DNA of 64,000 nt, taken from UHGV virus genome UHGV-0312702. One strand, given 5' to 3'. The translations under genes and the position numbers were made by a program. The stretch comes from a virus. Below the pieces are notes generated by a model that was not told where the DNA came from, did not search any database, and worked only from the letters and a program-made list of their open reading frames with translations. Shown here piece after piece: positions 40,216-47,613 of this stretch (within the stretch, counting starts at the first letter, position 1; every line of letters starts with the position of its first letter).

Positions 40216-40256
40216 CCTTAAAAAAGACGGCACAGAGACCGTCAAGGAGAAACCAC
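40216..40256 (-). terminator. palindromic hairpin with T-tract, putative terminator/attenuator
   Basis: TTCTCCTT...GACGG-cacagaga-CCGTC...AAGGAGAA; minus strand reads hairpin + TTTTTT. Confidence 0.4.
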
Positions 40257-40405: not shown

Positions 40406-40481
40406 TGGAGAATCCGAAGGGACTCGAACCCTTATAAACCTGTTTTGCAGACAGGCACATAGCCATTTCTGTCACGGATTC
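40406..40481 (-). tRNA. tRNA-Cys (anticodon GCA)
   Basis: manual fold: acceptor GAATCCG/CGGATTC, T-loop GGTTCGAGTCC, loop CTGCAAA, CCA encoded. Confidence 0.65.
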
Positions 40482-40485
40482 AAAT

Positions 40486-40578
40486 TGGAGGAAGATACCA
40501 GACTTGAACTGGTACACCGATTTCTCAGCTACTGGCAGTTTAGCAAACTGCTCCCTTACCTTTTAGGGTTAATCTTCC
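40486..40578 (-). tRNA. tRNA-Ser (anticodon GCU), long variable arm
   Basis: 93 nt; acceptor GGAAGAT/ATCTTCC; anticodon loop TTGCTAA. Confidence 0.65.
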
Positions 40579-40579
40579 A

Positions 40580-41314
40580 TTATTTCTGTAATGCGCTCTT
40601 CATTTCTGGTGTTGCAATAGTGTCAATCACACCAGTTTTACAAGCATCATCAAACCAGTCTGGTAAGATACCTGCTAAGAACCCATTGATATTCGTTTTA
40701 AGGTACTCTGCAATAAGGGCAGCTTCTTCTTCAATCATCTGCACAACTTCATCTGCATAAGCTGTAATCTTTGAGATACCTTCATTAATCTTACTAACAG
40801 CCTGATTAGCTAAATCAGAAACAGTATCAAGACCCTTATCAATAGCATCTTGTAAGTCACTTAATACATCATTAACGCTGTCTAGTGTATCATTAATAGC
40901 ATCAATAGCTTTTTGACCATACTCTGTAGCAACACCCATAATACCGCTGAATGGTGTACAACCAACTTGTTCTCCCGCTGCACCCATAACATTGGAATAT
41001 CCCTTTGCTACCTGCATACGTGATGAAAACTCGTCAATAGACTTTTGACCGTAGTCTGTTAGGGTCTTAGTAGTTGCTGTAGTGCTTGTCAGACTCGTTG
41101 TAAAGCTGTTTAGAAGGACTGTTGTAAGTCCAGCAGCAACAAGTTTTTCCTTCATTGCAGGGTCTGTTACAGAGCTAATAGAGCTTACAAGTGATGTAGA
41201 GGCAGCTACGGTTCCACCTAGAACTGCTGCACCAGTAATAAGGGGGTTAGAAAACCCTTTACCAGTTTTTAAGAGATTAAAAATCTCCTTACCTTGTCCT
41301 GTCATCTCTTTCAT
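40580..41314 (-). CDS. hypothetical protein inside tRNA cluster
   Basis: start set at ATG 41314 with RBS AAAGGTG; track start 41377 runs through tRNA-Phe. Confidence 0.45.
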   Translation of the reverse strand: MKEMTGQGKEIFNLLKTGKGFSNPLITGAAVLGGTVAASTSLVSSISSVTDPAMKEKLVAAGLTTVLLNSFTTSLTSTTATTKTLTDYGQKSIDEFSSRMQVAKGYSNVMGAAGEQVGCTPFSGIMGVATEYGQKAIDAINDTLDSVNDVLSDLQDAIDKGLDTVSDLANQAVSKINEGISKITAYADEVVQMIEEEAALIAEYLKTNINGFLAGILPDWFDDACKTGVIDTIATPEMKSALQK

Positions 41315-41330
41315 TAAGCACCTTTGAAAT

Positions 41331-41407
41331 TGGTAGTCCAGTGGGATTTGAACCCTCTTCTCATGTTTTTCAGACACGCGCTTTAACCATATAAGCTACT
41401 TGGACTA
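41331..41407 (-). tRNA. tRNA-Phe (anticodon GAA)
   Basis: acceptor TAGTCCA/TGGACTA; loop CTGAAAA; T-loop GGTTCAAATCC. Confidence 0.65.
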
Positions 41408-41412
41408 TAAAT

Positions 41413-41489
41413 TGGGGTGACCTACGGGATTTGAACCCGTATAGACCATGTTCACAGCATGGGTCATTACCATTTATGATAAGGCCACA
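41413..41489 (-). tRNA. tRNA-His (anticodon GUG)
   Basis: loop CTGTGAA, discriminator C. Confidence 0.6.
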
Positions 41490-41519
41490 TTTAAGGACTC
41501 TCGTAAGAACCCTTAGAAG

Positions 41520-41595
41520 TGGCAGCGGCATAAGGATTTGAACCTTAATAGGACAGCTTCAGAGACTGTTGCATTGCCAGTTATGCTATACCGCT
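41520..41595 (-). tRNA. tRNA-Gln (anticodon CUG)
   Basis: loop CTCTGAA, discriminator G. Confidence 0.6.
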
Positions 41596-41600
41596 AAATT

Positions 41601-41679
41601 TGGTACTCCATATCGGATTCGAACCGATACATAACACAGATTTTAAGTCTGGCCTCTCTGCCAATTGGAGTAATGGAGC
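41601..41679 (-). tRNA. tRNA with anticodon UAA (Leu codon UUA) but short variable loop
   Basis: loop CTTAAAA; T-arm ATCGG-TTCGAAT-CCGAT; discriminator A; no long variable arm. Confidence 0.45.
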
Positions 41680-41681
41680 AT

Positions 41682-41756
41682 TGGCGGGGGATGTTGGAAT
41701 TGAACCAACTTCTTCGATTTCAAAGACCGAGGTTTTAACCTTGTAAACTAATCCCC
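41682..41756 (-). tRNA. tRNA-Gln (anticodon UUG)
   Basis: loop CTTTGAA, discriminator G. Confidence 0.6.
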
Positions 41757-41765
41757 TTTAAATCT

Positions 41766-42323
41766 TTACTTTCTTAGTGGATGAATAAAGAATGCCAACA
41801 TAACTCTTTCCCTTGAGAATGCTCTTTCTTCTGGGACAACACTTTTAAGTTTCCACCCAACATAAATTCTCCAGTAAAATTGTTTACCAAAGACTTTAAT
41901 TGATGGGATAAAAGCAAATAATCCCCAAGCATTGCTGTTCCACATTAGGAGATAACCTGTCTGATTATCTTCAGGGTTAGAACTTACGTTGATATTACCT
42001 TTCCACTTAGTAACATCTTTTACATCTCTTCCTAACACATGGTAAGAGAAGTTATAAGCTTTGTTTCTCCAGAGCCATCCAACTCTCTGCATATAAACAC
42101 CGAGCTTACCAATCTTTCTAATCTTAGCCCATCGTTTGATATGACCTGCATCACCATCAATTGGGTTGTCATAAGTCTCCATCCATCTGAAACCAAAAGG
42201 CAGATGACCTTTCTTCTCACTGTAGAATGGGACTACGAAAGGTGCTAAGATAACTGCCAAGATTGCTGCAAATGGCTCTAACAAAGCTAAGAAAATCCAT
42301 GAAGCATACTTCAAATATCTCAT
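41766..42323 (-). CDS. membrane protein
   Basis: hydrophobic N-terminus WIFLALLEPFAAILAVILAPFVVPF. Confidence 0.5.
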   Translation of the reverse strand: MRYLKYASWIFLALLEPFAAILAVILAPFVVPFYSEKKGHLPFGFRWMETYDNPIDGDAGHIKRWAKIRKIGKLGVYMQRVGWLWRNKAYNFSYHVLGRDVKDVTKWKGNINVSSNPEDNQTGYLLMWNSNAWGLFAFIPSIKVFGKQFYWRIYVGWKLKSVVPEERAFSRERVMLAFFIHPLRK

Positions 42324-42562
42324 TGTCTAATCCTAGTAAGGAGGTAAACATTATTATTTGTTTCTGAGTTTTCTGGTAAAGCTGTCTCAAAATTGACGCT
42401 TTTAAATTGTCTCCCACCAAAGTAATGACCAATAAATTTTTGTACTTTTATTGGGTCACATTCCCAGCCAACTTTCAAGAAAATGTGGGTATCTATAGTG
42501 GGAACCCTTACAAACTCAATACTATTGGAATTTTCATGTTCAACGACGATTAATGTTTGCAT
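42320..42562 (-). CDS. hypothetical protein
   Basis: 80 aa coupled ORF. Confidence 0.35.
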   Translation of the reverse strand: MQTLIVVEHENSNSIEFVRVPTIDTHIFLKVGWECDPIKVQKFIGHYFGGRQFKSVNFETALPENSETNNNVYLLTRIRQ

Positions 42563-42580
42563 AAATCTCTCTTATTTATC

Positions 42581-42656
42581 TGGCGCAGGATAAGGGACTT
42601 GAACCCCTATTAACAGCTTCGTAGACTGTTGCTCTATCCATTTGAACTAATCCTGC
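42581..42656 (-). tRNA. tRNA-Arg (anticodon ACG)
   Basis: acceptor GCAGGAT/ATCCTGC; loop CTACGAA. Confidence 0.65.
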
Positions 42657-42661
42657 AAAAT

Positions 42662-42739
42662 TGGTGTTCCAAGACGGATTCGAACCGTCACTAGTACAAG
42701 GTTTGAGCTTGCATCCTCTGCCAATTGGGATACTGGAAC
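42662..42739 (-). tRNA. tRNA with anticodon CAA (Leu codon UUG) but short variable loop
   Basis: loop CTCAAAC; T-arm GACGG-TTCGAAT-CCGTC; discriminator A. Confidence 0.45.
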
Positions 42740-42740
42740 A

Positions 42741-42815
42741 TGGTACTCACTAAAGGACTTGAACCTTTTTCTTCATCTTGTAAGGGTGATGTTTTACCAT
42801 ATAAACTAAGCGAGT
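42741..42815 (-). tRNA. tRNA-Val (anticodon UAC)
   Basis: loop CTTACAA. Confidence 0.55.
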
Positions 42816-42911
42816 GTGAAAGAGGTCTGAAGTTGTGCCACTAACTCAACTCCGTGGAATTTGTTACGGTCTTCAGTTGACTCAAAGTGGTCTTTCACTT
42901 GACCTCTGAAT

Positions 42912-42987
42912 TGGTGCTCCCACAAGGATTCGAACCCTGATAAGTTGCTTACAAGGCAACCGTAATAGCCAATTATACGATAGGAGC
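42912..42987 (-). tRNA. tRNA-Thr (anticodon UGU)
   Basis: stem GTTGC/GCAAC, loop CTTGTAA. Confidence 0.65.
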
Positions 42988-42994
42988 ATTAATT

Positions 42995-43069
42995 TGGAGC
43001 ATCCAGAGGGAATCGAACCCTCAACCTCAGTTTGGAAGACTGTAATTTTCCCGTTTAAACTATGGATGC
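42995..43069 (-). tRNA. tRNA-Gly (anticodon UCC)
   Basis: acceptor GCATCCA/TGGATGC; loop CTTCCAA; discriminator U. Confidence 0.6.
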
Positions 43070-43075
43070 ACTAAT

Positions 43076-43151
43076 TGGTGGAGAAGCAGGGAATTGAACC
43101 CTGTACTTAAGTTTGCAAAACTTATGTTTTAACCATGTAAACTACATCCCC
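43076..43151 (-). tRNA. tRNA-Ala (anticodon UGC)
   Basis: G3:U70 wobble in acceptor stem; loop TTTGCAA. Confidence 0.6.
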
Positions 43152-43157
43152 AATGTT

Positions 43158-43233
43158 TGGTACAGGTGGAGGGAATTGAACCCATCGTCTTACTGATTAA
43201 GAGTCAGCCGCATAACCATTTTGCTACACCTGC
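43158..43233 (-). tRNA. tRNA-Lys (anticodon CUU)
   Basis: loop CTCTTAA. Confidence 0.55.
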
Positions 43234-43240
43234 ATTAATT

Positions 43241-43316
43241 TGGTACACCTAGAGAGATTCGAACTCACACTGAGCAGATTCTAAGTCTGCTGCCTCTACC
43301 AGTTGGGCTATAGGTG
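43241..43316 (-). tRNA. tRNA with anticodon UAG (Leu codon CUA) but short variable loop
   Basis: 6-bp anticodon stem AGCAGA/TCTGCT; loop CTTAGAA; discriminator A. Confidence 0.45.
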
Positions 43317-43563
43317 CATTAAATCTTTTTAGAGAACTTCTAAGAACCTAAGCAACAAGGTTCCACAACAAGCTGTAATAACCTTAGAAGCCCTCTAAAA
43401 AGACCTAAAAAGGTCTTTGCATAGTCTTGTTTAATCCGGTGACTAGAACCTTTGGAGAGCTTGATATTATCTCTTCTCCGTGACACCTACTAGGTGCTTT
43501 ACTGTGCGTGTACGACAATACACGAGGGATACCAAAGCAACATCCGAATGAAGCTTGGCTTTA

Positions 43564-43653
43564 AATCTTATTAGGCGGTAAGTAAAGGAGTCGAACCCTC
43601 ACCGTATCTCTACAGTGGCAACTGTTTTCAAGACAGTTTGGCTACCATTAGCC
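43564..43653 (-). tRNA. tRNA-Ser (anticodon UGA), long variable arm
   Basis: acceptor GGTAGGT/ACTTACC; loop CTTGAAA; discriminator G; CC but no terminal A encoded. Confidence 0.55.
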
Positions 43654-43676
43654 GCTACCTACCCCTAATAAGACTT

Positions 43677-43759
43677 TGGCATGGGACGGAGGAGTTGAAC
43701 CCCTTTGAAACGGTTTTGGAGGCCGTTGCTCATGCCTTAGAGTCTTAACATCGTCCCAC
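43677..43759 (-). tRNA. atypical tRNA-like gene, candidate tRNA-Trp (anticodon CCA)
   Basis: acceptor GTGGGAC/GTCCCAT; loop CTCCAAA; about 7 extra nt in D-arm region. Confidence 0.4.
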
Positions 43760-43901
43760 ACTATAATTCGAAACTTACCGTATTATCTCAACACTGTAAA
43801 GCCCCTTCTCAGATTATTTACATGTTCTGGAAAACATGAGATACAGACCACCTCCCTACAGGAAGACCCGCTTAGGTCGTCTAAGTAATCTGCTAACTAA
43901 T

Positions 43902-43978
43902 TGGCACACCCTACAGGATTCGAACCTGTAACTAACGATTTAGAAGACCGTTGCTCTATCCAATTGAACTAAGGGTGC
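43902..43978 (-). tRNA. tRNA-Arg (anticodon UCU)
   Basis: acceptor GCACCCT/AGGGTGT; loop CTTCTAA. Confidence 0.65.
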
Positions 43979-44271
43979 ATTAATCTTTAAAGACTCTCTT
44001 AGAAAGCCCTTAAAGATGCCCACCTTATTAATCATACCGTGGGCTAGTACGCCAAATTCTTTGATGAGGGATTGGAAGACCTCACTGGTGTTTAGCCTAT
44101 CAAGCTACTGCCAGAAAAACATTGTCGTTTGCATTTATTTTAAATTTGCAAAATAGACGCTACGCAACGAAAACTATTCAGAATATGTACAACAAATTTC
44201 CCCACATTGTGTTACGTCTAACGCTCATGTATTGGTGTTTGAATTATACATATTATGAATTATTTTTAGTT

Positions 44272-44300
44272 ACTATAAAGTAGTCACATCTCAATGTCAA
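44272..44300 (-). promoter_or_regulatory. strong sigma70-like promoter inside tRNA cluster
   Basis: minus strand TTGACA (44295-44300), 17-nt spacer, TATAGT (44272-44277). Confidence 0.55.
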
Positions 44301-44315
44301 CAACTTTATTGAAAT

Positions 44316-44390
44316 TGGTTGTAGGTGAGGGTATCGAACCCTCTTCTAACGGTTATCAGCCGTTTGCATTACCATTTATGCTAACCCACA
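44316..44390 (-). tRNA. tRNA-Ile (anticodon GAU)
   Basis: loop CTGATAA. Confidence 0.6.
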
Positions 44391-44392
44391 AT

Positions 44393-44469
44393 TGGAGGTT
44401 CAGGTGGGAATCGAACCCACATTCATAGGGCTTATGAAACCCCTGCATTACCTTATCTGCGACTGAACC
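44393..44469 (-). tRNA. tRNA-Met (anticodon CAU)
   Basis: loop TTCATAA; G-C-rich anticodon stem. Confidence 0.55.
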
Positions 44470-44473
44470 ATAT

Positions 44474-44549
44474 TGGTAGAAGTGGAGGGATTCGAACCCA
44501 TCGCCTGTCAGATTAAAAGTCTGCCGCATCACCATTCTGCTACACTTCC
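44474..44549 (-). tRNA. tRNA-Lys (anticodon UUU)
   Basis: loop CTTTTAA. Confidence 0.55.
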
Positions 44550-44698
44550 ATTAAATTATCTTTGTAGATAAGCTACCCAGACTTGCTTAAGGTCTGTAGC
44601 GATGTGCCTTGTTGGGTTTAAATCTAGAATTTACCCTTTCACCCTTTGTGGTCGCATACTCACAGGTAAGCTTAATAGCTCACCTACAAAGATAATTA

Positions 44699-44830
44699 CC
44701 AGACCGTTGTTTATCATCTTAAGTGCTACCATTACACCAACTCGACATCTGCCGAGTGAAGGAATCGAACCTTCGCCTTTTCTTTACCGGAGAAATAGAT
44801 TGTTTAAGTTTTGCTGTAAACGGTCTTCTG
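44699..44830 (-). ncRNA. candidate Y-RNA-like ncRNA E1 with tRNA-like module
   Basis: 5' box CAGAAGACC; terminal helix AGACCGTT/AACGGTCT; internal T-arm GAAGG-TTCGATT-CCTTC, acceptor-like hairpin ACTCGGC-AGAT-GTCGAGT, D-arm-like TGGTGTAATGGTAGCAC. Confidence 0.4.
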
Positions 44831-44843
44831 TAAATTTGTTGAG

Positions 44844-44917
44844 CCAGACCAAGTTTTAAATTTTCAAAATTAAATTGGCTTGAAATTTCATACATTCTTG
44901 CTGAATTTGGTCTTCTG
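44844..44917 (-). ncRNA. candidate Y-RNA-like ncRNA E2
   Basis: same 5' box; terminal helix AGACCAA/TTGGTCT (covaries with E1/E3). Confidence 0.35.
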
Positions 44918-45004
44918 CTCCTTTAAAGAATACTCGCAAGAACTCTTTAAGGGAGGGGCTAAATAGCCCTCTCAAAACATCATTTTGAAATACTTATTAT
45001 AATT

Positions 45005-45082
45005 TGGCGGTTACGAAGGGATTTGAACCCTCATCATCTCCCGTGACAGGGGAGTATTTTAACCAGATTAAACTACATAACC
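45005..45082 (-). tRNA. tRNA-Asp (anticodon GUC)
   Basis: stem CTCCC/GGGAG, loop CTGTCAC, discriminator G. Confidence 0.65.
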
Positions 45083-45087
45083 TTTAT

Positions 45088-45175
45088 TGGTGTGCCGTGT
45101 AGGAGTCGAACCTACCGAGTCTCAATGACAAGGGATTTACAGTCCCCACCGCTACCATCTACGGGATAACGACAC
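45088..45175 (-). tRNA. tRNA-Tyr (anticodon GUA), long variable arm
   Basis: 88 nt; loop CTGTAAA. Confidence 0.6.
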
Positions 45176-45184
45176 ATTTTAATT

Positions 45185-45261
45185 TGGCGGTTAGTCAGGG
45201 ATTCGAACCCTGTGCCATTCGCTTAACAGGCGACCGCACATACCTTATGTGCTTCCTAACC
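45185..45261 (-). tRNA. tRNA-Asn (anticodon GUU)
   Basis: loop CTGTTAA. Confidence 0.6.
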
Positions 45262-45272
45262 TTAATACATTG

Positions 45273-45331
45273 CCAGACCGTGTTTTTCTTTTATCCGCAA
45301 AAAGTAGTTTGTTGCTGAATACGGTCTTCTG
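45273..45331 (-). ncRNA. candidate Y-RNA-like ncRNA E3
   Basis: 5' box; terminal helix AGACCGT/ACGGTCT; begins about 6 nt after a tRNA 3' end. Confidence 0.35.
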
Positions 45332-45337
45332 CAAAAT

Positions 45338-45413
45338 TGGAGGCGGGTGCAGGAGTCGAACCTGCCGATACCATGCTAATGAGACATGTGAGACGCCCTT
45401 TCTCTATACCCGC
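45338..45413 (-). tRNA. tRNA-Met (anticodon CAU), second copy
   Basis: loop CTCATTA; possible 1:72 mismatch. Confidence 0.55.
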
Positions 45414-45425
45414 AATTCTTAATGA

Positions 45426-45498
45426 CCAGACCAAATCTCTTCTTTGTCCGATTGAATGTCAGATGAATAAGATTAAATTTGCTGTAATTGGTCTTCTG
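45426..45498 (-). ncRNA. candidate Y-RNA-like ncRNA E4
   Basis: 5' box; terminal helix AGACCAA/TTGGTCT. Confidence 0.35.
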
Positions 45499-45505
45499 TC
45501 AAAAC

Positions 45506-45580
45506 TGGTGTCGTAGACAGGATTCGAACCTGCGAGCAACTGATTGAAGGTCAGGTGGCTAACCATTTGCCTTCTACGAC
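45506..45580 (-). tRNA. tRNA-Glu (anticodon UUC)
   Basis: acceptor GTCGTAG/CTACGAC; loop CCTTCAA. Confidence 0.6.
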
Positions 45581-45581
45581 A

Positions 45582-45938
45582 TTAAACCATTGTAATTCCA
45601 CTATGAACCTCTCTGTGGCAATTAGCGCATAGCAAAACACATTTATCAAGTTCTTTTTTAACCTTTTCCCAAGATGCACCCATAAGTTTTGATGGTGTAT
45701 TCTCTTTTTCGTTTGGGTTAAGGTGATGCCATTCTAAAGCATTTTTACATTTATTATAGCCACAAATTATGCAACTATCGCCATAAAGCTTATATGCTTT
45801 CTCCCTATTGGCATCCTCTCTAAGTTTTGTCCTTAATGCACAACATTTTAGACAATTTACTCTATTACCGGCGTTACCATTCTTATGAATGCTATGTTCA
45901 GTTAAACCATGAACTGGACATTCTTTTAAAAATCTCAT
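45582..45938 (-). CDS. HNH endonuclease
   Basis: EWHHLNP and CANCHREVH motifs plus Cys pairs; start at ATG 45938 with RBS AAGGGG; track start 46016 runs through tRNA-Pro. Confidence 0.7.
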   Translation of the reverse strand: MRFLKECPVHGLTEHSIHKNGNAGNRVNCLKCCALRTKLREDANREKAYKLYGDSCIICGYNKCKNALEWHHLNPNEKENTPSKLMGASWEKVKKELDKCVLLCANCHREVHSGITMV

Positions 45939-45955
45939 AGTAACCCCTTTAAATT

Positions 45956-46032
45956 TGGTCTCTGTTGGAGGACTTGAACCTCCGGCCTTACCGCCCCAAA
46001 CGGAACGCTCTACCAAGCTGAGCTAAACAGAG
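45956..46032 (-). tRNA. tRNA-Pro (anticodon UGG)
   Basis: acceptor CTCTGTT/AACAGAG; loop TTTGGGG. Confidence 0.6.
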
Positions 46033-46197: not shown

Positions 46198-47613
46198 TTA
46201 CCAGATGTAACGGTCAATCATTACTGCTTTGAGCATTACGCTGATTGGGTCAAACTTCTCACCACCAAGCAGGGCTTTTAAAGTGGCTGGGGAGAACCCT
46301 GATACCATTGCTACACCGTTATCCTTAACAGACACTTCGCAAGTACCACTACGGTTTGCTAAGTACCAGAATACCAGTTGTGGCATTTCGTATCCAGCTT
46401 TTTTGTACTTACTACGAATTGCTTCAAAGTTTGTACGACCATTTGCACCATCAACCTGATTGAACTCCATATCAGAGAAGATGATAAGCTTACTTGGCAT
46501 ATCTTTCTGAGTCAAGTTGTTTCTCTTGCCTGTCTCAAGAATACGGTCAAAAGCTGCTTGTAAGTTGGTTGAACCATATTCAACATGACGCATTACCTGA
46601 CGGTGACGGTTTCGTAAATCACCACTCAGTTCGATGAAATGAGGGTTTGTTGAATAAACCATTAACTCGTTCTTAAAGCAACCTGTATTGCGTTCTGCTA
46701 CATACAAGGCAAGTGATACACCAATATCGAGGGCAGTAATTGAGCCAAGATTCACCCAAGACATTGAGCTTGAAACATCAGTCATACACAAGATGTTTTC
46801 ACCTTCTGCCATCCAGTTTGGTAGTGCTTTCCACTGCTCATTAGCAACATCTGCATTACCATACTTGATAGATTTAATCACATCGTATGGATAAACAGCA
46901 CCAGCATTAATCTTAGTCTCACCCTTTGATAAGGACTCAACGTAAGCTTTGTAGCGTTCTCCATCTTTACGGTTAAATAATTTTTGGTAACGTGCAGCAG
47001 CAAGTGAAGGAATCTTACTGTAGTCAATCTTACCAAACTCATTAGCAGAGATTTTTTGTTCAACTGTATCAGATAGTGCAGACAGCAGTGTGCGGTACTC
47101 TTTCTCGCTCAAGTTTGCAAACTTACAGAAACGTTTTACAAACTGTTTGTGACGTGGTTTTACTCGTGGTAACCACTTAGCTGCTAAACCTGCTGTTGCA
47201 GGGTCTAGTAAAGCTGCTTCTAAATGTTTGAAGGCATCTGTCTCAAAACGAGTACCTACAAAGATTTTGAAGTCATCAAAGCGACCAAGCTCTGCAATCT
47301 TATCCATAATGCGAAGAACCTGTGTAGGCTCTAAAACTTTATCTTCAATCGCTTGAAGTAAAACAGTTCGGAAAGCCTTACGCTCACCCATACCTTCTCG
47401 TACATCTCGCATATGCAGTAAAATACGAACTGCAACATCAACATCCTCATGCAAAGCTTTGTAGAACAAGTCTGGTAAGATTTCTACATTGCTACGGCTA
47501 GAACCAGCAGCTTTGTAAAAGTCTACAAGAGCAGACATTGATGAAGTATGGTTTACAGCACCATTTTCAGTTCGACCTGCATGAAGGTGCGCATGTTTAA
47601 ATAATTCGCTCAT
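46198..47613 (-). CDS. Ro60/Rsr-like protein (TROVE-like N-terminus + vWA domain)
   Basis: MIDAS DVSSSM plus LGSI, GSTN...IIFSDMEF segments resembling Ro60 vWA as recalled from memory. Confidence 0.55.
   Translation of the reverse strand: MSELFKHAHLHAGRTENGAVNHTSSMSALVDFYKAAGSSRSNVEILPDLFYKALHEDVDVAVRILLHMRDVREGMGERKAFRTVLLQAIEDKVLEPTQVLRIMDKIAELGRFDDFKIFVGTRFETDAFKHLEAALLDPATAGLAAKWLPRVKPRHKQFVKRFCKFANLSEKEYRTLLSALSDTVEQKISANEFGKIDYSKIPSLAAARYQKLFNRKDGERYKAYVESLSKGETKINAGAVYPYDVIKSIKYGNADVANEQWKALPNWMAEGENILCMTDVSSSMSWVNLGSITALDIGVSLALYVAERNTGCFKNELMVYSTNPHFIELSGDLRNRHRQVMRHVEYGSTNLQAAFDRILETGKRNNLTQKDMPSKLIIFSDMEFNQVDGANGRTNFEAIRSKYKKAGYEMPQLVFWYLANRSGTCEVSVKDNGVAMVSGFSPATLKALLGGEKFDPISVMLKAVMIDRYIW

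What the first reader, a model, noticed from the sequence alone, without database searches (positions are those of the whole stretch)
41601..43316. Three tRNAs with leucine anticodons but class I (short variable loop) architecture
tRNAs at 41601-41679 (UAA), 42662-42739 (CAA) and 43241-43316 (UAG) have canonical acceptor stems, T-loops, U33, A37 and discriminator A73, but are only 76-79 nt, with no room for the long variable arm of bacterial tRNA-Leu. No class II tRNA-Leu was found in the cluster. If the manual folds are right, they are either unusual Leu isoacceptors or tRNAs whose identity is decoupled from the anticodon, which could recode host translation.
Basis: seen in the sequence. Interest (0 to 1): 0.6.

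Follow-up and report, generated by a model that had tools for sequence, protein, structure and literature searches.

The report
Short-armed leucine tRNAs of a phage
Three leucine tRNA genes in this Felix O1-like phage really do lack the long extra arm that bacterial leucine tRNAs carry, yet keep every other leucine hallmark. They belong to a widespread, little-noticed short-armed leucine tRNA design found in many phages and some Actinobacteria.

Summary
ARAGORN and Rfam find tRNA-Leu(UAA), (CAA) and (UAG) on the minus strand at 41601-41679, 42662-42739 and 43241-43317. They are 79, 78 and 77 nt including an encoded CCA, with variable loops of 7, 6 and 5 nt. The cluster has no class II Leu, while its Ser and Tyr tRNAs keep long arms.

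The window is a Felixounavirus. These genes have been annotated as tRNA-Leu since 2010, but no searched paper comments on their architecture.

All three carry the full E. coli LeuRS identity set: A73, U8-A14, A15-U48, G18G19, A20a, and the Leu-type 3-bp D stem with an 11-nt loop. A covariance model built from bacterial Leu tRNA bodies prefers them. Published tRNAscan-SE isotype scores for homologues in phage Sf14 put Leu on top.

Leu-UAA and Leu-CAA are nearly invariant across relatives, and their codons sit at invariant Leu positions. So they are most likely true Leu acceptors, not recoders.

The design is common in viral contigs (23 of 120 sampled loci against 0 of 120 bacterial loci). It shows full stem covariation and a remodelled core (A9, C12-G23, C13.A22).

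Charging by E. coli LeuRS is untested. E. coli LeuRS failed on the Streptomyces type I tRNALeu.

The parts
41601..41679 (-). tRNA-Leu(UAA), class I. It is 79 nt including CCA, with variable loop GUUAUGU (7 nt), A9, C12-G23, C13.A22, A15-U48 and A73.
   Evidence: ARAGORN; Rfam 47.5 bits; parse; Leu-body model 48.8 bits. It shows 0 differences in 5 Felixounavirus genomes compared and 1/79 in Mooglevirus. It is 100% identical in 216 records.
42662..42739 (-). tRNA-Leu(CAA), class I. It is 78 nt including CCA, with variable loop ACUAGU (6 nt) and the same core signature.
   Evidence: ARAGORN; Rfam 43.6 bits; parse; Leu-body model 48.5 bits. It shows 0-1 differences in 78 nt across Felixounavirus, Mooglevirus and Felix O1.
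43241..43317 (-). tRNA-Leu(UAG), class I. It is 77 nt including CCA, with variable loop UCAGU (5 nt). It has A37 rather than the bacterial G37, and a U50.U64 mismatch.
   Evidence: ARAGORN; Rfam 57.3 bits; parse; Leu-body model 63.4 bits, the best in the window. This is one of two unrelated class I alleles that occupy this slot in Felixounavirus genomes. The closest relatives outside the genus are tRNA-Leu genes of actinophages.
40406..46032 (-). The tRNA gene cluster that holds the three Leu genes. ARAGORN finds 25 tRNAs, and Rfam adds tRNA-Glu(UUC) at 45509-45580. Small ORFs and an HNH endonuclease gene are interspersed.
40486..40578 (-). tRNA-Ser(GCU), class II (21-nt variable arm). This is an internal contrast.
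43574..43663 (-). tRNA-Ser(UGA), class II (20-nt variable arm). This is an internal contrast.
45088..45175 (-). tRNA-Tyr(GUA), class II (15-nt variable arm). This is an internal contrast.
44272..44300 (-). Promoter-like site (TTGACA-17-TATAGT, 11 of 12) upstream of the tRNA block that contains the Leu genes. The evidence is weak.
   Evidence: The total number of promoter-like sites is not above the shuffled expectation.
40226..40243 (-). Terminator-like hairpin plus T run downstream of the last tRNA (Cys). The evidence is weak.

Best explanation
The three genes encode working leucine tRNAs built on a class I (short variable loop) scaffold. They are made with the other roughly 23 tRNAs of the cluster, with the CCA end encoded, and are matured by host enzymes. 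They are charged with leucine by the host LeuRS. In E. coli that enzyme reads the discriminator A73 and the shape of the D/T-loop corner and core (A14, A15-U48, G18G19, A20a). It does not read the anticodon or the long arm. The tRNAs then read UUA/UUG, UUG and CUA (plus CUG, and possibly other CUN codons). These codons are frequent in this 39% G+C phage and rare in the host. The long arm has been replaced by a 5-7-nt loop ending in U48, and the core has been re-tuned to A9, C12-G23 and C13.A22, where class II Leu has G9, G12-C23 and G/A13.A22. Ser and Tyr tRNAs keep their arms because their synthetases need them. Shown here: the fold, the identity elements, conservation, covariation, the distribution and codon use. 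Inferred: transcription and processing, charging by host LeuRS, and the decoding range.
For: The fold and anticodons are confirmed by two programs. The D arm has the same architecture as host leuZ, leuX and leuW: a 3-bp stem and an 11-nt loop reading xAAYUGGYAGA. A15-U48, the T loop UUCGAAU and A73 are present. These are exactly the E. coli determinants listed in the review PMC9976931, which also states that the long arm and the anticodon are not needed.

A model built from 64 bacterial class II Leu bodies, with anticodon and variable region masked, ranks the three tRNAs 1st, 3rd and 4th of 26. They are the only tRNAs scoring above their general-tRNA score. In 99 viral loci, 113 of the 122 top hits of that model have Leu anticodons. 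Published tRNAscan-SE isotype scores for the Sf14 homologues put Leu first: 67.4, 49.1 and 60.2.

Purifying selection is strong. Leu-UAA and Leu-CAA differ at 0-1 sites, while neighbouring ORFs differ by 3-23% and intergenic DNA by about 8%. The wider class I family of 159 unique sequences covaries in every stem: 98.2% of cells are paired, 20 of 20 pairs show compensatory changes, and the score is 1.035 against 0.25 for shuffles. The tertiary 15-48 pair also covaries, from A-U to G-C.

TTA, TTG and CTA make up 53% of Leu codons and sit at invariant Leu positions of ThyA. In the same viral loci Ser and Tyr remain class II, as expected if charging by standard synthetases is the constraint.
Against: There are no aminoacylation or expression data for these tRNAs. 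E. coli LeuRS did not charge the type I tRNALeu(CAA) of S. coelicolor in vitro, and its leucine-specific domain is reported to favour large variable loops. That tRNA has C48, whereas the phage tRNAs have the A15-U48 pair that E. coli LeuRS requires, so the result may not transfer. Leu-UAG has A37 where bacterial NAG Leu tRNAs have G37 in 64 of 65 cases. Two stems carry a mismatch. The Leu-body model also gives the phage tRNA-Cys a high score of 54.4 bits. It was trained on tRNAs picked with a pattern that shares the GGTAGA D-loop motif, so the test is partly circular for Leu-UAG. Single-sequence MFE folding does not recover the cloverleaf for two of the three and is not better than shuffles.
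Confidence: 0.8

Rival explanations
1. The tRNAs accept Leu as above, but loss of the long arm is an adaptation rather than a tolerated simplification. It would make the phage's Leu tRNAs a poor substrate for a host factor that recognises class II Leu tRNAs through the arm or the class II core, such as a defence tRNase, a toxin or a modifying enzyme. Leu decoding would then survive host shut-down.
For: Class I Leu is strongly enriched in viral contigs over bacterial genomes: 23 of 120 loci against 0 of 120, p = 7e-8. No similar sequence exists in 5,426 E. coli genomes. The anticodon loops also differ from the host's, with C32 and A37/A38 in Leu-UAG. That is the kind of change linked to escape from anticodon nucleases (PMC10264068, listed). 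Eukaryotic SLFN11 is described as cleaving type II tRNAs (title cited).
Against: I could find no bacterial defence nuclease known to pick Leu tRNAs by the long arm. The bacterial Schlafen studied cuts the anticodon arm and shows no class II preference. Ser and Tyr tRNAs in the same clusters keep their arms. Some Actinobacteria use the same design as an ordinary chromosomal tRNA. T5 carries a class II Leu.
Confidence: 0.15
2. The anticodon says Leu, but the tRNAs are charged by another synthetase or not at all. They would then recode or perturb UUA/UUG/CUA decoding during infection.
For: E. coli LeuRS did not charge the one bacterial type I tRNALeu that has been tested. For the Sf14 Leu-UAG homologue the runner-up isotype scores are close: Ile2 65.7 and Lys 63.4 against Leu 67.4. 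One GenBank record labels a homologue 'tRNA-OTHER'.
Against: All Leu determinants are present, and there is no G3.U70 or other obvious foreign determinant. The codons concerned account for 4.3% of all phage codons and 53% of Leu codons. They occupy invariant Leu positions of ThyA, for example TTA in MALAPCH and FLG. They align to Leu at a rate of 9/19, no lower than the 10/26 of the other Leu codons. The same design is charged with Leu in S. coelicolor.
Confidence: 0.03
3. The genes are decaying tRNA-Leu pseudogenes that lost their arm by deletion and no longer function.
For: The architecture is atypical, two stems carry mismatches, and Felix O1's own paper flags two other tRNAs of the cluster as pseudo.
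Against: The genes are near-invariant across hundreds of genomes while their flanks diverge. Compensatory changes occur in every stem across 159 unique relatives. The CCA is encoded and the T and D loops are intact.
Confidence: 0.02

Closest known systems
Bacterial class II tRNA-Leu (E. coli leuZ, leuX and leuW, the host isoacceptors with the same anticodons)
   Same: Shared features are the anticodons, A73, U8-A14, A15-U48, G18G19, A20a, and the 3-bp D stem with a 13.22 mismatch and an 11-nt D loop. The T-loop elbow contacts and the encoded CCA are also shared.
   Different: The variable region is 5-7 nt instead of 13-15 nt with a helix. The phage tRNAs have A9, C12-G23 and C13 where the host has G9, G12-C23 and G/A13. 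They have C32, and Leu-UAG has A37 instead of G37.
Type I tRNALeu(CAA) of Streptomyces coelicolor (Fan et al. 2019, PMC6614811) and the chromosomal class I tRNA-Leu found here in Nocardia farcinica and Tsukamurella
   Same: All are bacterial-type Leu tRNAs with a 5-nt variable loop of the NCAGY kind. The Nocardia and Tsukamurella genes share the U8 A9 / GCC-CAAUUGGCAGA-GGC D arm and A73 with the window's tRNAs. The Streptomyces tRNA is shown to be leucylated by its own LeuRS.
   Different: Those are host genes in Actinobacteria. The S. coelicolor tRNA has C48, and E. coli LeuRS did not charge it. Here the genes sit in a phage of Enterobacteria whose hosts have only class II Leu. The S. coelicolor sequence itself could not be obtained for comparison.
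Animal mitochondrial tRNA-Leu (type I)
   Same: It has a short variable loop and Leu identity resting on A73 and A14.
   Different: It belongs to a different translation system with its own LeuRS and floppy, reduced structures. There is no evidence of relatedness. The phage tRNAs keep canonical bacterial D and T loops.
tRNA clusters of large virulent phages (T5, T4, Bixzunavirus, Vequintavirinae)
   Same: They share dense arrays of about 20-25 tRNA genes with interspersed HNH endonuclease genes and encoded CCA, and are presumed to supplement codons rare in the host.
   Different: T5's Leu(UAG) is class II at 85 nt. Koguma, KaOmega and StarPlatinum carry class I Leu like this window.

Membership tests
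tRNA (Rfam RF00005) | The covariance model score is above the gathering threshold of 29 bits. | tested here: met
   Scores are 47.5, 43.6 and 57.3 bits. ARAGORN calls all three.
Bacterial tRNA-Leu (substrate of an E. coli-type LeuRS) | A Leu anticodon (NAG or YAA). | tested here: met
   The anticodons are UAA, CAA and UAG, in 7-nt loops with U33.
Bacterial tRNA-Leu (substrate of an E. coli-type LeuRS) | Discriminator A73. | tested here: met
   All three have A73. So do 154 of 157 viral class I Leu tRNAs.
Bacterial tRNA-Leu (substrate of an E. coli-type LeuRS) | The core and elbow determinants: U8-A14, the A15-U48 Levitt pair, G18G19 placement, A20a, G18:U55, G19:C56 and U54:A58. | tested here: met
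   The D loop reads C-AAYUGGYAG-A, U48 is the last variable nucleotide, and the T loop is UUCGAAU in all three. The determinant list comes from PMC9976931.
Bacterial tRNA-Leu (substrate of an E. coli-type LeuRS) | A long variable arm (class II, more than 10 nt with a helix). | tested here: not met
   The variable loops are 7, 6 and 5 nt. All 112 sampled bacterial Leu tRNAs have 11-18 nt. The arm is characteristic of the family but is reported to be dispensable for E. coli LeuRS.
Bacterial tRNA-Leu (substrate of an E. coli-type LeuRS) | An isotype-specific model prefers Leu. | tested here: met
   My own Leu-body model ranks them 1st, 3rd and 4th of 26, and they are the only tRNAs scoring above the general model. 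tRNAscan-SE isotype scores for the Sf14 homologues put Leu on top. Caveats are the high score of tRNA-Cys and the partial circularity of the model.
Bacterial tRNA-Leu (substrate of an E. coli-type LeuRS) | G37 (m1G37 site) in CUN-reading isoacceptors. | tested here: not met
   Leu-UAG has A37. Bacteria have G37 in 64 of 65 cases, while viral class I NAG tRNAs have A37 in 46 of 80.
Bacterial tRNA-Leu (substrate of an E. coli-type LeuRS) | The tRNA is leucylated by host LeuRS. | not testable with these tools
   This needs biochemistry. The only related datum is negative, and it concerns a C48 actinobacterial type I tRNA.
Class I tRNA-Leu design of phages and Actinobacteria (as delimited here) | A 4-8-nt variable loop ending in U48 (or C48 paired with G15), a Leu-type 3-bp D stem with an 11-nt loop, A73, and usually A9, C12-G23 and C13.A22. 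| tested here: met
   All three window tRNAs carry the full signature. Of 165 class I sequences, 106 have A9 plus C13. Nocardia and Tsukamurella have the same signature.
Animal mitochondrial type I tRNA-Leu | An organellar origin and reduced D/T-loop interactions. | tested here: not met
   The D and T loops are canonical and bacterial, and the context is a phage genome.

The most novel reading that the evidence does not exclude
Class I tRNA-Leu is a mobile, largely phage-borne tRNA lineage. Loss of the arm, seen in at least two independent designs, would be selected because it uncouples phage Leu decoding from a host factor that recognises class II Leu tRNAs, such as a defence tRNase or toxin. 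The actinobacterial chromosomal type I tRNALeu, including the S. coelicolor UUG reader, would share ancestry with this phage lineage.
Probability: 0.15. Interest if true: 0.8.

Novelty: new variant of a known kind. Interest (0 to 1): 0.5.

Why it matters
[quoted passage not shown] The only bacterial exception studied so far, in S. coelicolor, was presented as rare. The sampling here suggests that a sizeable share of phage-encoded Leu tRNAs are class I with a coherent, covarying core redesign. This includes phages of Proteobacteria, Actinobacteria, Firmicutes and Bacteroidota.

If host LeuRS enzymes charge them, bacterial LeuRS tolerance of armless substrates is general. That bears on identity rules, on the evolution of class II tRNAs, on the design of orthogonal or minimal Leu tRNAs, and on annotation pipelines, which sometimes label these genes 'tRNA-OTHER'.

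It also gives a clean natural experiment. Only the class II family whose synthetase ignores the arm has lost it. If E. coli LeuRS does not charge them, something more unusual is going on in a very common group of coliphages.

Tried and rejected
1. Single-sequence MFE folding did not return cloverleaves for two of the three tRNAs, and z-scores were weak (-1.6, -1.5 and -0.2). I judged this uninformative for tRNAs and relied on covariance models and comparative data instead.

2. Nearest-neighbour classification of window tRNAs by whole-body identity to bacterial tRNAs did not discriminate. The reference set was 112 Leu against 1-10 of each other isotype.

3. I tested for a link between the phrog_850 RNA-binding protein next to the cluster and the Ro-like protein next to the tRNA cluster of Streptomyces phage StarPlatinum. 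BLASTP gave E = 0.61, so there is no detectable homology.

4. I looked for a bacterial nuclease that selects class II tRNAs. The bacterial Schlafen paper reports cleavage in the anticodon arm and no class II preference.

5. Larkin et al. 2002 could not be read, and the supplement of Fan et al. 2019 is not held. I therefore could not compare the S. coelicolor tRNA sequence itself, only its variable loop, ACAGC.

7. Nine literature searches found no paper that describes class I tRNA-Leu in phages. That is an absence in the searchable library, not proof that none exists.
Full report
**What is there**

ARAGORN finds 25 tRNA genes on the minus strand between 40406 and 46032. They include tRNA-Leu(UAA) at 41601-41679, tRNA-Leu(CAA) at 42662-42739 and tRNA-Leu(UAG) at 43241-43317. 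Rfam's tRNA model matches all three at 47.5, 43.6 and 57.3 bits, and adds a 26th tRNA that ARAGORN misses.

With the encoded CCA the three are 79, 78 and 77 nt long. A positional parse gives:
- a 7-bp acceptor stem, then U8 and A9
- a 3-bp D stem with a C13.A22 mismatch and an 11-nt D loop (CAAUUGGCAGA, CAAUUGGCAGA, CAACUGGUAGA)
- a 5-bp anticodon stem and a 7-nt loop with U33 and A37
- variable loops GUUAUGU, ACUAGU and UCAGU
- a 5-bp T stem with loop UUCGAAU, and A73

There is no class II tRNA-Leu in the cluster. The two Ser tRNAs and the Tyr tRNA next to them have 15-21-nt variable arms. The strand is minus, and the last gene ends at 43317.

**Where the window comes from**

The region is 94-97% identical to Felixounavirus genomes, the Felix O1-like myoviruses of E. 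coli, Salmonella and Shigella. The three genes are annotated as tRNA-Leu in most of these records. The 2010 Felix O1 genome paper lists them at 78, 78 and 79 nt without comment on their shape.

A 2025 paper on the related Mooglevirus Sf14 tabulates tRNAscan-SE isotype-specific scores. Leu is the top isotype for all three homologues: 67.4 for TAG, 49.1 for CAA and 60.2 for TAA. That paper never mentions the variable region. So the genes are known, but I found no comment on their architecture in any paper I searched.

**Are they leucine tRNAs?**

The review of tRNA identity (PMC9976931) summarises the E. coli rules. A73 is crucial. The A15-U48 pair, G18G19, A20a and the D/T-loop tertiary pairs are essential. 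The anticodon and the long variable arm are not, and variants lacking the arm stay active.

All of these determinants are present in all three phage tRNAs. Their D arm has the same unusual architecture as the host isoacceptors leuZ, leuX and leuW, which I fetched from E. coli K-12.

As a stand-in for isotype scoring I built a covariance model from 64 bacterial class II Leu tRNAs, with the anticodon and variable region masked. In the window it scores Leu-UAG 63.4, Cys 54.4, Leu-UAA 48.8 and Leu-CAA 48.5, and everything else lower. The three Leu tRNAs are the only ones that score higher with this model than with the general tRNA model. Over 99 viral loci, 113 of its 122 best hits carry Leu anticodons.

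Two caveats apply. The training and target sets were both collected with a pattern containing GGTAGA. The phage tRNA-Cys also scores well.

**Are they functional, and do their codons mean Leu?**

I compared the window with Felix O1, four other Felixounavirus genomes and two Mooglevirus genomes.
- Leu-UAA shows 0-1 differences.
- Leu-CAA shows 0-1 differences.
- The two neighbouring ORFs differ by 3-23% in the Felixounavirus comparisons.
- Intergenic DNA differs by about 8% (pooled over four Felixounavirus genomes).

Leu-UAA is 100% identical across 216 phage records.

The window's ORFs have 39% G+C. Their Leu codons are TTA 28%, CTT 27%, CTG 14%, TTG 14%, CTA 11% and CTC 6%. The three tRNAs therefore directly cover 53% of Leu codons.

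In the phage thymidylate synthase, aligned to two solved homologues, TTA/TTG/CTA codons align to Leu in 9 of 19 cells and to L/I/V/M/F in 15 of 19. For CTT/CTC/CTG the figures are 10 of 26 and 21 of 26. TTA encodes the invariant Leu residues of the MALAPCH and FLG motifs. The sample is small, but nothing suggests recoding.

**The wider picture**

A BLAST of Leu-UAG gave ungapped matches through the variable region to annotated tRNA-Leu genes of phages infecting Mycobacterium, Streptomyces, Gordonia, Pseudomonas, Klebsiella, Cronobacter and Enterococcus, and of a crAss-like phage. Fetching three of these confirmed Leu tRNAs of 74-80 nt. T5, in contrast, has a class II Leu of 85 nt.

I then scanned two collections with one pattern that spans the Leu D loop, the anticodon loop and the T loop and allows any variable-region length.
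- Among the first 120 viral loci, 23 held a class I match.
- Among the first 120 bacterial-genome loci, none did; all 121 matches had 11-18 nt. Fisher's exact test gives p = 7e-8.
- The length distribution is bimodal, at 4-7 nt and 9-18 nt.
- Leu tRNAs that were bystanders in class II-seeded viral loci split 10 class I to 10 class II.
- Viral loci holding only class I Leu have a median of 7 tRNAs. Those holding only class II have a median of 3, and 20 of 87 have a single tRNA. Class I is therefore typical of genuine phage tRNA clusters.
- In the same viral loci Ser tRNAs (95 of 100) and Tyr tRNAs (36 of 38) stay class II. [quoted passage not shown]

**Anatomy of the class I family**

Among 157-165 viral class I Leu tRNAs (159 unique):
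- A73 is present in 154 of 157, and A15-U48 in 144 of 157.
- Four sequences have switched together to G15-C48.
- Every stem pair shows 4-7 pair types with 91-100% canonical pairing.
- The formal count gives 98.2% paired cells, compensatory changes in 20 of 20 pairs, and a covariation score of 1.035. Shuffles give 0.25 and slid registers 0.11-0.19.

Compared with class II Leu, the family has a concerted core change. It has A9 instead of G9, C12-G23 instead of G12-C23, and C13.A22 instead of G/A13.A22. All three window tRNAs carry this signature.

A minority of class I sequences keep the class II core (G9, G13). The alternative Leu-UAG allele of Felix O1 itself is of this kind. It differs from the window's allele at about 45% of positions yet also has a 5-nt loop. 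Arm loss has therefore probably happened more than once. Body-only nearest neighbours of class I sequences are class I in 76 of 98 cases.

CUN-reading class I tRNAs often have A37 (46 of 80), whereas bacteria have G37 in 64 of 65 cases.

**Not only phages**

The window's Leu-UAG has no BLAST match in 5,426 complete E. coli genomes. In the plasmid collection it hits three actinobacterial records; the two I fetched look like chromosome pieces. Nocardia farcinica has a 75-nt tRNA-Leu(UAA). Tsukamurella has a 77-nt tRNA-Leu(CAA) lying next to an integrase and a prophage. Both carry the same UA / GCC-CAAUUGGCAGA-GGC D arm and an NCAGU loop.

This matches the one published bacterial case. S. coelicolor has a type I tRNALeu(CAA) with variable loop ACAGC, which its own LeuRS charges efficiently.

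In that study E. coli LeuRS did not charge the Streptomyces type I tRNA. This is the main reason for caution. The Streptomyces tRNA has C48, while the coliphage tRNAs have the A15-U48 pair that E. coli LeuRS needs. The negative result may therefore not apply, but that is inference.

**Verdict**

The three genes are best explained as functional Leu isoacceptors of a class I design, charged by host LeuRS and supplying UUA, UUG and CUA decoding for an AT-rich phage (confidence about 0.8).

Why the arm is missing is open. The simplest reading is that it is lost because LeuRS, alone among the class II synthetases, does not need it. An adaptive reading, escape from a host factor that recognises class II Leu tRNAs, is not excluded and has no direct support.

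The recoding idea is not supported.

The genes themselves are already annotated. What seems new is the recognition that they belong to a widespread, covarying, core-remodelled class I Leu family that is enriched in phages and shared with some Actinobacteria.

Noticed in passing
window 45509-45580 (-): This is a 26th tRNA, tRNA-Glu(UUC) by its anticodon loop CCUUCAA. Rfam finds it at 55.4 bits and my Leu-body model at 37.5 bits, but ARAGORN does not report it. It corresponds to the tRNA-Glu listed for Felix O1.
   Followed up: partly
window 43683-43757 (-): This is a weak tRNA-like sequence with a GGGACG/CGUCCC acceptor-like pairing, a GGUUCAACUCC T arm and a possible CCA (Trp) anticodon. It scores only 19 bits with my model and 23 bits (E = 0.21) with Rfam tRNA-Sec. 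It may be a degenerate tRNA remnant.
   Followed up: partly
window 43241-43317, 43076-43151, 42912-42987, 42581-42656 (-), compared with L345 and L348-L353: Several tRNA slots (Leu-UAG, Ala, Thr, Arg-ACG) hold two very different alleles among otherwise 92-97% identical Felixounavirus and Mooglevirus genomes. The alleles differ at 18-37 of about 76 positions. This suggests cassette-like replacement of single tRNA genes.
   Followed up: partly
window 45582-45938 (-): An HNH endonuclease ORF (Pfam HNH, phrog_2255) sits inside the tRNA cluster. T5's tRNA region has homing endonuclease genes in the same way.
   Followed up: partly
window 46198-47613 (-): A 471-aa protein with DUF2828 and DUF7788 (phrog_850, 'RNA-binding protein') lies directly upstream of the tRNA cluster. 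Streptomyces phage StarPlatinum has a 'Ro-like RNA-binding protein' in the matching place, but the two show no BLASTP similarity (E = 0.61).
   Followed up: partly
GenBank GU169904.1 (hit H17/H151): The record named Staphylococcus phage SA1 (147 kb) contains a stretch 94.6% identical to this enterobacterial Felixounavirus tRNA region. This suggests a chimeric or contaminated assembly.
   Followed up: no
L011 1326-1397, L072 2386-2457, L074 993-1064, L032 9592-9665, L107 10969-11041; L038 8187-8259, L146 10786-10857: A few viral contigs carry class I tRNAs with Ser (UGA) or Tyr (GUA) anticodons, 4-5-nt variable loops and mostly A73. These might be identity-switched or otherwise unusual tRNAs, unlike the Ser and Tyr tRNAs of this window.
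   Followed up: no
window 43241-43317 and viral loci L005-L221: Phage CUN-reading Leu tRNAs often have A37 instead of the G37 (m1G37 site) that is almost universal in bacteria. The counts are 46 of 80 in class I and 15 of 60 in viral class II, against 1 of 65 in bacterial genomes.
   Followed up: partly
L346 4001-4075 (Nocardia farcinica), L347 5994-6070 (Tsukamurella tyrosinosolvens): These are class I tRNA-Leu genes in actinobacterial replicons labelled as plasmids; the Tsukamurella record carries chromosomal-type genes (the Nocardia record is 2.66 Mb and unannotated here). The Tsukamurella gene abuts an integrase and prophage genes, so it may be a phage attachment site.
   Followed up: partly
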